IMG/VR virus record: IMGVR_UViG_2713896905_000005
Coordinates: 1 to 8,704 of that record
Reading direction: 5' to 3' (one strand)
DNA: 8,704 nt
Source: a virus
Taxonomy: Duplodnaviria > Heunggongvirae > Uroviricota > Caudoviricetes
This document shows positions 4,315-5,022 of this stretch, piece after piece. Both the position numbers and the translations under genes were made by a program. Position 1 is the stretch's first letter. Each line of letters starts with the position of its first letter. The notes beneath the pieces are model-generated. The model was not told the origin of the DNA. It saw only the letters and a program-made list of their open reading frames with translations, and ran no database searches.

Positions 4315-5022
4315 TTATGCCGCCTGTTTTAGTTCGTTAACTCTGATGTTCATTACCTGAACGCATTTAGCCTGCGCCTCCTCGTTGCCAGCCATTAATT
4401 GCCAGTCACGCTGATAACGCTCGATGAGTTTTTTCTTGTCAGTTTCTGTTGATGCATAATCGCTGAAGTCTTTCAGGATTTGTTCGCAGTCAACCGATGG
4501 AGATTTCTGGTTGGTATTTTCTGGTGATGGTTTGTTATCTGATGCTGGGATTGCCCATCCCGGCAGCGATGGAGGGAGCCAGTAAAATCCTGTTCCATCC
4601 TTCAGTTTTGCCCTGTGCCACCCCTGCTTTTTATCGAGAGATGTTTGTGCGAAACCTTCCTCAAGGTTATACAGATACCGACCGATTCCCCACTGAACGG
4701 CAGCGCGCTTCATTGCGCCGGAACGACCACCTTTGACGGCTTCTACCTGCGTGTTTTCAGCAGCATCCCATTTGGTTACCCATTCGGAATCAATCCTGAT
4801 TGATATGCCGCATTCAACGCCTCCGTTGTTGGGAATATCGCGGTATTCATTGCGCCATCCTGCTTTGCCGCAAACATCGTCCAGGCGTTTCATGATTGCC
4901 CTGTTCGTGACATAAGCCAGCACCATAGCCCACACCTTGCCATCGCGTGTTTTACCGCTTTGCTGTATTCGCCATTCGATATCTTCAGGGCTGAATGGCT
5001 CATCGAATTTGTTCAAATCCAT
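4315..5022 (-). CDS. Phage single-strand annealing recombinase, 235 aa: Rad52/Sak-like N-terminal domain with an Erf-like C-terminal tail
   Basis: ATG at 5022 with GAGGTG upstream. N-terminal motifs (FSPEDIEWR, AMKRAAVQWGIGRYLY) fit phage Rad52/Sak-type annealing proteins. C-terminal about 55 aa (…YASTETDKKKLIERYQRDWQ…CVQVMNIRVNELKQAA) matches my recollection of the P22 Erf C-terminus. Sits immediately upstream of ssb. Confidence 0.8.
   Translation of the reverse strand: MDLNKFDEPFSPEDIEWRIQQSGKTRDGKVWAMVLAYVTNRAIMKRLDDVCGKAGWRNEYRDIPNNGGVECGISIRIDSEWVTKWDAAENTQVEAVKGGRSGAMKRAAVQWGIGRYLYNLEEGFAQTSLDKKQGWHRAKLKDGTGFYWLPPSLPGWAIPASDNKPSPENTNQKSPSVDCEQILKDFSDYASTETDKKKLIERYQRDWQLMAGNEEAQAKCVQVMNIRVNELKQAA

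What the first reader, a model, noticed from the sequence alone, without database searches (positions are those of the whole stretch)
4315..5022. Chimeric annealing recombinase: Rad52/Sak-like core fused to an Erf-type C-terminal tail
The N-terminal two-thirds carries Rad52/Sak-type motifs (…AMKRAAVQWGIGRYLY…), whereas the last 55 or so residues match the P22 Erf C-terminus as I recall it. P22 Erf's own N-terminal domain belongs to a different annealing-protein family. This implies the tail is a swappable module, plausibly the one that couples the recombinase to its cognate SSB, which is the adjacent gene.
Basis: partly seen in the sequence, partly recalled or inferred. Interest (0 to 1): 0.45.

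Follow-up and report, generated by a model that had tools for sequence, protein, structure and literature searches.

The report
Rad52-type phage recombinase with Erf tail
This is the single-strand annealing recombinase of a P22/lambda-like E. coli prophage, built from a Rad52/Sak-type DNA-annealing core joined by a floppy linker to the small C-terminal domain also found on phage P22 Erf; the mosaic is real, but phage genome papers have described it for about twenty years.

Summary
ORF 4315-5022 (minus strand, 235 aa) is 100% identical to Shigella phage Sf6 gp28.

- **Core:** residues 4-136 match Pfam Rad52_Rad22 (E=7e-26). Residues 6-159 are 58% identical to Lactococcus phage ul36 Sak. The AlphaFold model hits Mgm101 and RAD52.
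- **Tail:** only residues 157-235 resemble P22 Erf (63% identity, E=2e-30). P22 Erf's own core is Pfam ERF, and profile comparison finds no similarity between the two cores.
- **Architecture:** core, disordered linker (about residues 158-177), then a confident three-helix bundle (179-234) under strong purifying selection (dN/dS about 0.08).
- **"Swappable module" is supported.** Tails of ERF-core and Rad52-core proteins intermix: five tail clusters at 80% identity or more hold both cores, and about 11 switches are needed on the tail tree. Mosaic DNA junctions sit at the linker and at the stop codon.
- **"Couples to the adjacent SSB" is not supported.** The tail occurs with and without a phage SSB, Abc1 or Abc2 next to it. 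Any SSB partner would have to include host SSB. Tail fold searches were uninformative.
- **Novelty:** the Erf "domain swap" is already published in the ε34 and phage L papers, which cite the Sf6, ES18 and HK97/HK022 genome papers. This is already known and of low-to-moderate interest.

The parts
4315..5022 (-). Complete recombinase gene (235 codons plus stop). It is 100% identical to Sf6 gp28 and 99% identical to the HK75, mEpX2 and mEp235 homologues.
4552..5022 (-). Residues 1-157: Rad52/Sak-type annealing core, predicted to form the ring and bind ssDNA. It contains the AMKRAAVQWGIGRYLY helix.
   Evidence: Pfam PF04098 E=7e-26. 58% identity to ul36 Sak over 155 aa, E=2e-66. AF2 pLDDT is mostly above 85. 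Foldseek hits Mgm101 9yi9 at E=1e-4 and RAD52 8bjm/5jrb/1h2i at probability 0.97-1.0.
4492..4551 (-). Residues 158-177: variable-length, low-complexity, disordered linker. The 5' mosaic junction lies here.
   Evidence: Length varies widely in the 46-sequence alignment. P0020 carries an in-frame deletion of it. pLDDT is below 50 for residues 162-175. DNA identity to P22 rises at about 4490.
4318..4491 (-). Residues 178-235: Erf-type C-terminal domain, a three-helix bundle (helices 179-192, 196-209, 214-234).
   Evidence: 63-75% identity to the P22 Erf C-terminus. Tail-only AF2 model has pLDDT 90.1. dN/dS is 0.07-0.09. Nearly invariant positions are L183, F186, Y203, W207, C220, R227, E230 and L231.
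5031..5201 (-). 56-aa gene immediately upstream (Sf6 gp29 / HK97 gp42-like, phrog_1723). Relatives in other tail-bearing loci end in an SSB-tip-like peptide.
5110..5280 (-). Sf6 gp30-like small gene whose N-terminus carries the Arf motif WSDEEFI.
3808..4314 (-). Phage SSB (168 aa). Its start codon overlaps the recombinase stop (TAAATG). The acidic tip DDDIPF is followed by 15 extra residues.
   Evidence: Pfam SSB E=2e-36
3498..3794 (-). Abc2 anti-RecBCD gene, about 99% identical to P22 abc2 over its first ~90 nt and diverging after that.
   Evidence: Pfam PF11043 E=4e-62

Best explanation
The gene encodes the single-strand annealing protein (SSAP) of the Rec module of a lambdoid/P22-like E. 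coli prophage. The module is the 'HK75-type' of Zheng et al. 2025: SAP + SSB + Abc2, no nuclease. The N-terminal 157 residues are a Rad52/Sak-family domain. By homology with ul36 Sak, RAD52 and Mgm101, this domain should assemble into a ring, bind ssDNA and anneal complementary strands. A disordered linker of about 20 residues tethers a 57-residue three-helix bundle homologous to the C-terminal domain of P22 Erf. I infer that this tail is a peripheral protein-docking domain that plugs the annealing ring into the rest of the recombination or replication machinery. The partner is a factor present in every host of these phages. The host SSB acidic tip is the leading candidate, by analogy with Redβ, RecT and Rad52-RPA.

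In evolutionary terms, the tail and the linker are the seam at which homologous recombination between phages has repeatedly replaced an ERF-type core with a Rad52/Sak-type core, or the reverse.

Shown here: the domain identities, the architecture, selection on the tail, the repeated swaps and the lack of dependence on any one neighbouring phage gene. Inferred: ring formation, annealing activity, the docking function and the identity of the partner.
For: - **Core identity:**
- **Tail identity:**
- **Architecture:**
- **The tail is a constrained protein domain, not just conserved DNA:** dN/dS is 0.08 (window vs P22), 0.09 (window vs L086) and 0.07 (L088 vs L089), similar to the core at 0.06-0.09.
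- **Repeated exchange:** 12 of 105 distinct Rad52-core tails have an ERF-core tail as nearest neighbour. Examples are P0022 at 98% to P22 Erf, P0071 at 94% to P0245, and P0078 at 83% to Erwinia EhrS_49. Fitch parsimony needs 11 core switches on the tail tree, against a mean of 61 with shuffled labels. Five clusters at 80% identity or more contain both cores.
- **Cassette-like DNA junctions:** L088 (ERF) and L089 (Rad52) share 84% identity up to nt 15 of the gene, nothing across the core, and 89% in the last 178 bp. L086 (Rad52 core) is 91% identical to P22 from the start of the tail through abc1 and abc2.
- **No obligatory phage-encoded neighbour:**
- **Restricted distribution:** the tail is confined to Enterobacterales phages, with only 15 hits among 1.84 billion cluster representatives and all named sources enterobacterial.
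- **Literature:**
  - The Erf protein has two domains and domain swaps are documented (PMC2629481, PMC8022706).
  - An Erf-like ring protein, SECΦ27 Gp77, has a flexible peripheral C-terminal three-helix domain that is not part of the ring (PMC13017515).
  - SSB binds λ Beta, and shuffling of partner-interaction domains in Rec modules has been suggested (PMC12315714).
Against: - No physical or predicted-complex evidence for any partner was obtainable.
- The host SSB tip is invariant in Enterobacterales, yet tail surfaces diverge down to about 25-35% identity. A single invariant peptide partner does not obviously require that.
- Clustering of tails by host genus could reflect recombination opportunity rather than co-adaptation.
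- The tree rests on 52 columns, so the exact number of swaps is uncertain.
Confidence: 0.8

Rival explanations
1. One reading: the tail is a specific adaptor for the phage's own SSB encoded by the adjacent gene, and the two co-evolve.
For: In 80 of 80 IMG/VR loci with an identical tail, an SSB gene follows directly. The SSB start overlaps the recombinase stop codon. Cognate SSB stimulation through the SSB C-terminal tail is documented for HK620 Sak4 (PMC5928155).
Against: - Those 80 loci are a single recent lineage.
- Tail-bearing genes without a downstream SSB include P22, L086/L087, L088, L089/L090, L093, L094, Klebsiella RCIP0034 and Erwinia EhrS_49.
- L086 has the same Rad52 core with a P22-type tail followed by abc1.
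- The window's SSB has 15 residues after DDDIPF, so its tip lacks the free C-terminal Phe that canonical SSB-tip binding sites use (the binding requirement is from general knowledge).
Confidence: 0.12
2. The tail docks onto another Rec-module protein. One option is the small upstream Arf or gp29-like protein. The other is Abc1/Abc2 and the Abc2-modified RecBCD, which would hand resected ssDNA to the annealing ring much as λ Exo binds the Redβ C-terminal domain.
For: - Nearly every tail-bearing locus has a small gene abutting the recombinase start. It is Arf (PF17585) in P22, L069, L091, L094, L095 and RCIP0034, with Arf-like genes in EhrS_49 and L093 and in window/Sf6 (gp30). It is gp29-like in the window, L086, L088, L089 and L096.
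- gp29-like proteins end in an SSB-tip-like peptide (DFLGEELPF).
- Abc2 or a distant Abc2-like gene is present in many loci.
- Arf and Abc1 aid Erf-dependent recombination by unknown mechanisms (PMC12315714).
Against: The upstream gene belongs to at least two unrelated families. It was not recognisable in Morganella IME1369_01 or Hafnia L092. Abc1 and Abc2 are absent from several loci (EhrS_49, L088, L091, L093, L094). No interaction data exist.
Confidence: 0.2
3. The tail acts within the protein itself. It could regulate oligomerisation or DNA binding of the core, or supply a second DNA-binding surface, as C-terminal regions do in Mgm101 and RAD52. In that case no external partner is needed.
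For: A three-helix bundle on a flexible tether sits at the ring periphery. There are conserved basic positions (K219, R227, K233). The C-tail of Mgm101 is needed for ssDNA binding and ring stability (PMC3655812, listed).
Against: The same tail works with two cores that share no detectable sequence similarity. That is hard to reconcile with a specific intramolecular contact. From memory of Poteete et al. 1983, the P22 Erf N-terminal fragment alone forms rings and binds DNA; I did not verify this here.
Confidence: 0.12
4. The tail is conserved mainly as a DNA-level boundary sequence that promotes module exchange or translational coupling to the next gene, not for a protein function.
For: Mosaic junctions fall precisely at both of its ends. 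Its stop codon overlaps the next gene's start.
Against: Synonymous sites are saturated between the window and P22 (dS=1.6) while dN is 0.14. dN/dS of 0.07-0.09 matches the core. The hydrophobic-core pattern is conserved down to about 25% identity, and the fold prediction is confident.
Confidence: 0.03

Closest known systems
Shigella phage Sf6 gp28 and its orthologues (HK75, mEp235, mEpX2, ES18 gp49, ε34 gp36, ST64T orf235, phage L Erf)
   Same: Sf6 gp28 is 100% identical. The others are 88-99% identical over the full length and share the same chimeric architecture. The Rec-module layout is the same.
   Different: Nothing in the recombinase itself. In the window the SSB gene is followed directly by abc2, whereas Sf6 has an HNH-like gp26 between them.
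Lactococcus phage ul36 Sak (characterised phage Rad52 homologue)
   Same: The core is 58% identical over 155 residues, up to the PxLPxWAxP motif. It is in the same Pfam family. An SSB gene follows the recombinase there too.
   Different: The C-terminal ~88 residues of Sak are unrelated to the Erf-type tail (tail HMM score about 0 bits). The host is Gram-positive.
Phage P22 Erf
   Same: The C-terminal 56-62 residues are 71-75% identical. The gene holds the same position in the early-left operon upstream of abc2, and the protein has the same two-domain plan.
   Different: The P22 Erf core is Pfam ERF PF04404 and shows no detectable similarity to this core. P22 has abc1, not ssb, downstream.
λ Redβ C-terminal domain (binds λ Exo and the SSB tip)
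   Same: The general plan matches: annealing core, then a small helical C-terminal domain used for partner binding (PMC12315714). The tail here is also a three-helix bundle.

Membership tests
Rad52/Rad22/Sak SSAP family (Pfam PF04098) | Family HMM match above the curated threshold | tested here: met
   91.4 bits against a cut-off of 20.3, E=7e-26, residues 4-136 covering profile positions 7-153 of 153
Rad52/Rad22/Sak SSAP family (Pfam PF04098) | Clear homology to an experimentally characterised member (ul36 Sak) | tested here: met
   58% identity over 155 aa, E=2e-66
Rad52/Rad22/Sak SSAP family (Pfam PF04098) | Rad52-type fold of the N-terminal domain | tested here: met
   AF2 model with mean pLDDT 83.8. 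Foldseek against PDB gives Mgm101 9yi9 at E=1e-4 and RAD52 8bjm/5jrb/8rjw/1h2i at probability 0.97-1.0, but TM-scores are modest at 0.25-0.5.
Rad52/Rad22/Sak SSAP family (Pfam PF04098) | Oligomeric ring and ssDNA annealing activity | not testable with these tools
   Needs biochemistry or EM
ERF family (Pfam PF04404) | ERF-family annealing core | tested here: not met
   No ERF hit at E<=1. BLASTP to P22 Erf finds nothing in residues 1-156. hhalign of Rad52-core against ERF-core profiles gives probability 0.1%.
ERF family (Pfam PF04404) | P22 Erf-type C-terminal domain | tested here: met
   63% identity, E=2e-30. The same domain sits on bona fide ERF cores of P22, RCIP0034, EhrS_49, IME1369_01 and 120 further ERF-core proteins from the database search.
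SSB-tip-binding C-terminal domains of SSAPs (Redβ CTD type) | Specific structural similarity to the Redβ C-terminal domain | tested here: not met
SSB-tip-binding C-terminal domains of SSAPs (Redβ CTD type) | Binding of the SSB C-terminal acidic peptide | not testable with these tools
   No complex prediction was available. Co-occurrence shows only that a phage SSB is not required.

The most novel reading that the evidence does not exclude
The Erf-type tail is a portable three-helix docking domain specific to Enterobacterales phages. It recognises C-terminal '...[DE]-x-x-[IL]-P-F' peptides, meaning the host or phage SSB tip and also the SSB-tip-like end of the small gp29-like protein encoded just upstream. 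That protein would then act as an SSB-tip mimic that gates or primes loading of the annealing ring. Because the partner surface is shared, phages can swap unrelated annealing cores behind the same tail, as seen at least five times.
Probability: 0.15. Interest if true: 0.55.

Novelty: already known. Interest (0 to 1): 0.25.

Why it matters
It is a clean natural example of SSAPs being built as a catalytic annealing core plus an exchangeable partner-docking tail. That principle underlies the host-range limits of recombineering proteins. If the partner of the Erf-type tail were identified, the tail could serve as a transferable handle to make heterologous annealing cores work in Enterobacterales. 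It would also explain what Arf and Abc1, or the gp29-like proteins, do.

The chimera itself is already annotated and discussed in the Sf6, ES18, ε34 and phage L genome papers, so the finding adds little by itself. This analysis adds four things:
- Quantification of repeated swaps.
- The three-helix-bundle prediction.
- Evidence of strong purifying selection on the tail.
- Evidence that the tail is not tied to a phage-encoded SSB.

Tried and rejected
- **Tail-only word-indexed protein search:** returned only short gene fragments and nothing about architectures.
- **Tail-only exhaustive HMMER search:** only 15 hits. It shows a narrow family but gave too few sequences for statistics. I therefore used full-length searches with each core.
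- **The search for related loci with the diverse tail alignment:** failed because no stretch was conserved enough. With the single tail it returned 80 near-identical loci of one lineage, useful only for context counts.
- **PDB sequence search:** no homologue with a solved structure, only a weak WW-like match at E=0.1.
- **Idea that the 15-residue SSB extension is a simple deletion scar of the HNH gene:** rejected, because the same extension follows a very divergent SSB in L095 and the DNA is conserved.
- **Idea that the tail is conserved only as DNA:** rejected by dN/dS.
- **Literature that could not be read:** the ES18 paper and the supplement of Zheng et al. 2025. The exact wording of the earliest descriptions (Juhala 2000, Casjens 2004/2005) is therefore taken second-hand from PMC2629481.
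- **Complex prediction of tail with SSB:** could not be run.

Full report
**What is in the window.** All relevant genes lie on the minus strand and form the early-left operon of a lambdoid/P22-like prophage. Reading in the direction of transcription they are:
- the repressor (7522-8172) and, on the plus strand, the divergently transcribed cro-like gene (8253-8438)
- an N-like antiterminator region
- several small genes
- a 56-aa gp29-like gene (5031-5201)
- the gene in question (4315-5022)
- an SSB gene (3808-4314)
- abc2 (3498-3794)

The nearest phage record is mEp235, 98.9% identical over window 3339-8704. Thousands of E. coli genomes carry related prophage segments, where NCBI's PGAP names the gene 'Rad52/Rad22 family DNA repair protein'. 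In the scheme of Zheng, Casjens et al. 2025 this is an 'HK75-type' Rec module: anti-RecBCD + SSB + SAP, no nuclease (PMC12315714).

**Checking the observation.** The 235-aa product is 100% identical to Sf6 gp28 and 88-99% identical to proteins of HK75, mEpX2, ES18, ε34, ST64T and many Salmonella P22-like phages.
- Pfam places residues 4-136 in Rad52_Rad22 (E=7e-26) and gives no ERF hit.
- Residues 6-159 are 58% identical to Sak of Lactococcus phage ul36, the characterised phage Rad52 homologue, and 47% identical to Vibrio phage proteins.
- BLASTP against P22 Erf aligns only residues 157-235 with Erf 134-205 (63% identity, E=2e-30).
- P22 Erf residues 5-146 are Pfam ERF (E=5e-46).
- A local profile-profile comparison of the two cores finds nothing (hhalign probability 0.1%). 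Lopes et al. 2010 argue from structure modelling that Sak, Erf and Redβ all belong to a Rad52 superfamily (PMC2896510).
- At DNA level the similarity to P22 is an island of about 175 bp (window ~4490-4315, 70-87% identity). It starts in the linker and ends at the stop codon. The ssb and abc1 genes that follow cannot be aligned, and similarity resumes at ~99% at the start of abc2.

**Anatomy.** An alignment of 46 full-length homologues (57-94% identity, many Enterobacterales genera) shows three parts:
- a highly conserved core up to PxLPxWAxP (residue 159)
- a linker of very variable length and composition
- a conserved tail whose nearly invariant positions are L183, F186, Y203, W207, C220, R227, E230 and L231

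**Is the tail a real, selected protein domain?** Yes. Between the window and P22 the tail has dS=1.6 (saturated) and dN=0.14, so dN/dS is 0.08. Other pairs give 0.07-0.09, the same as the core at 0.06-0.09. This excludes conservation purely as a DNA boundary sequence.

**Is it swappable?** The more distant tails found in phage genomes all sit on ERF cores: Klebsiella RCIP0034, Erwinia EhrS_49 and Morganella IME1369_01. A profile search with those proteins returned 120 further ERF-core proteins, all carrying the tail.

I compared 187 distinct tails, 105 on Rad52 cores and 82 on ERF cores.
- Twelve Rad52-core tails have an ERF-core tail as nearest neighbour. Examples are 98% (P0022 vs P22 Erf), 94% (P0071 vs P0245), 85% (P0108 vs P0174) and 83% (P0078 vs EhrS_49).
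- On a neighbour-joining tree of the tails, core type needs 11 changes, against about 61 for shuffled labels.
- Five single-linkage clusters at 80% identity or more contain both cores.

DNA comparisons show the mechanics.
- L088 (ERF) and L089 (Rad52) are 84% identical through the upstream gene and the first 15 nt of the recombinase gene. They are unalignable across the core and 89% identical over the last 178 bp.
- L086 (Rad52 core) becomes 91% identical to P22 exactly at the start of the tail and stays so through abc1 and abc2.

Conversely, the Sak-type core carries unrelated C-terminal regions in ul36 and Vibrio phage D59. The tail is therefore an exchangeable module, and the exchange has happened several times. 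The exact count is uncertain because the tree rests on 52 columns.

**Does it couple to the adjacent SSB?** Co-occurrence argues against a dedicated link. Tail-bearing loci include these arrangements:

| Arrangement | Loci |
|---|---|
| ERF core, no SSB | P22, L088, L094, RCIP0034, EhrS_49 |
| ERF core + SSB | L095, Morganella IME1369_01 |
| Rad52 core + SSB | window, L069, L091, L092, L096 |
| Rad52 core, no SSB | L086/L087, L089/L090, L093 |

Abc1 and Abc2 are likewise present in some loci and absent in others. A small gene abutting the recombinase start is the most constant neighbour, but it belongs to at least two unrelated families, Arf and gp29-like.

The partner, if there is one, is most simply a host protein common to all these hosts. 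By analogy with Redβ, RecT and Rad52-RPA (PMC12315714; PMC5928155), the SSB acidic tip is the leading candidate, but nothing here tests it. An Erf-like ring protein studied by cryo-EM (SECΦ27 Gp77) has a flexible, peripheral C-terminal three-helix domain that is dispensable for the ring (PMC13017515). That fits the geometry proposed here.

**Comparison with what is known.** The domain swap is already in the literature.
- The ε34 genome paper states that gene 36 'is called a homologue of ... [quoted passage not shown] - The Rad52/Sak identity of the core is in Pfam-based and RefSeq annotation.
- Zheng et al. [quoted passage not shown]

The present analysis fills in a little of that: repeated swaps, selection, fold and independence from phage SSB. 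It does not change the picture.

**Verdict.** Novelty is 'already known'. Interest is 0.25.

Noticed in passing
window 3808-3855 (-), end of the SSB gene, and 3795-3807 before abc2: The phage SSB does not end at its acidic tip. ...[10 protein letters not shown] is followed by [15 protein letters not shown]. The same 14-15 residues end Sf6 gp26 (HNH-like) and also the SSBs of L096 and L095; L095's SSB is only 37% identical to the window SSB overall. The ~50-bp DNA plus the abc2 ribosome-binding site is nearly invariant and is partly recognisable in the P22 abc1-abc2 spacer. It looks like a conserved DNA/RNA element in front of abc2 that the upstream ORF reads through. If translated, it would bury the SSB tip.
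   Followed up: partly
window 5031-5201 (-); L086 2804-2992, L088/L089 2810-2992, L096 2304-2492: The 56-62-aa gene directly upstream of the recombinase (Sf6 gp29 / HK97 gp42-like, phrog_1723) ends in a peptide resembling the SSB C-terminal tip: DFLGEELPF, DFLSENLPF, EFLANPSELPF. The window's version is the weaker YFLGPCPF. It may be an SSB-tip mimic.
   Followed up: partly
window 5110-5280 (-): The Sf6 gp30-like small ORF shares the N-terminal motif W[SND]D[DE]EFI with P22 Arf and Pfam Phage_Arf proteins of Klebsiella, Enterobacter and Citrobacter prophages. The window therefore seems to carry both an Arf-like and a gp29-like gene.
   Followed up: partly
window 4531-4638 (-), residues 129-164 of the recombinase: The end of the Sak-type core (GWHRAKLKDGTGFYWLPPSLPGWAIP) gives a weak WW-domain-like match to PRP40 (E=0.1). 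AlphaFold predicts it as a three-stranded meander. It is conserved in ul36 Sak and Vibrio homologues.
   Followed up: no
L006, L011, L012 and other IMG/VR loci; Sf6 L002 5692-6171: Between ssb and abc2 the related prophages vary. Some have an HNH-like gene (Sf6 gp26), some have it fused in frame to ssb, and some, like the window, lack it. mEp235 is annotated with a 3'-5' exonuclease in this region.
   Followed up: no
L089 3931-4215, L095 3607-3891, L096 3729-4013: These 94-aa proteins downstream of the recombinase/SSB are distant Abc2 relatives. They are 26-32% identical to Abc2 (E about 1e-6) and share the C-terminal ...RxxYRxRYG motif. Pfam PF11043 does not detect them, so some modules scored as lacking anti-RecBCD may have one.
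   Followed up: partly
P0106, P0113, P0131, P0039 (database homologues): Several database entries are frameshifted or fused versions of this gene: the gp29-like ORF fused to the core, or the tail replaced by out-of-frame sequence. These are pseudogenes or assembly errors, not new architectures.
   Followed up: yes
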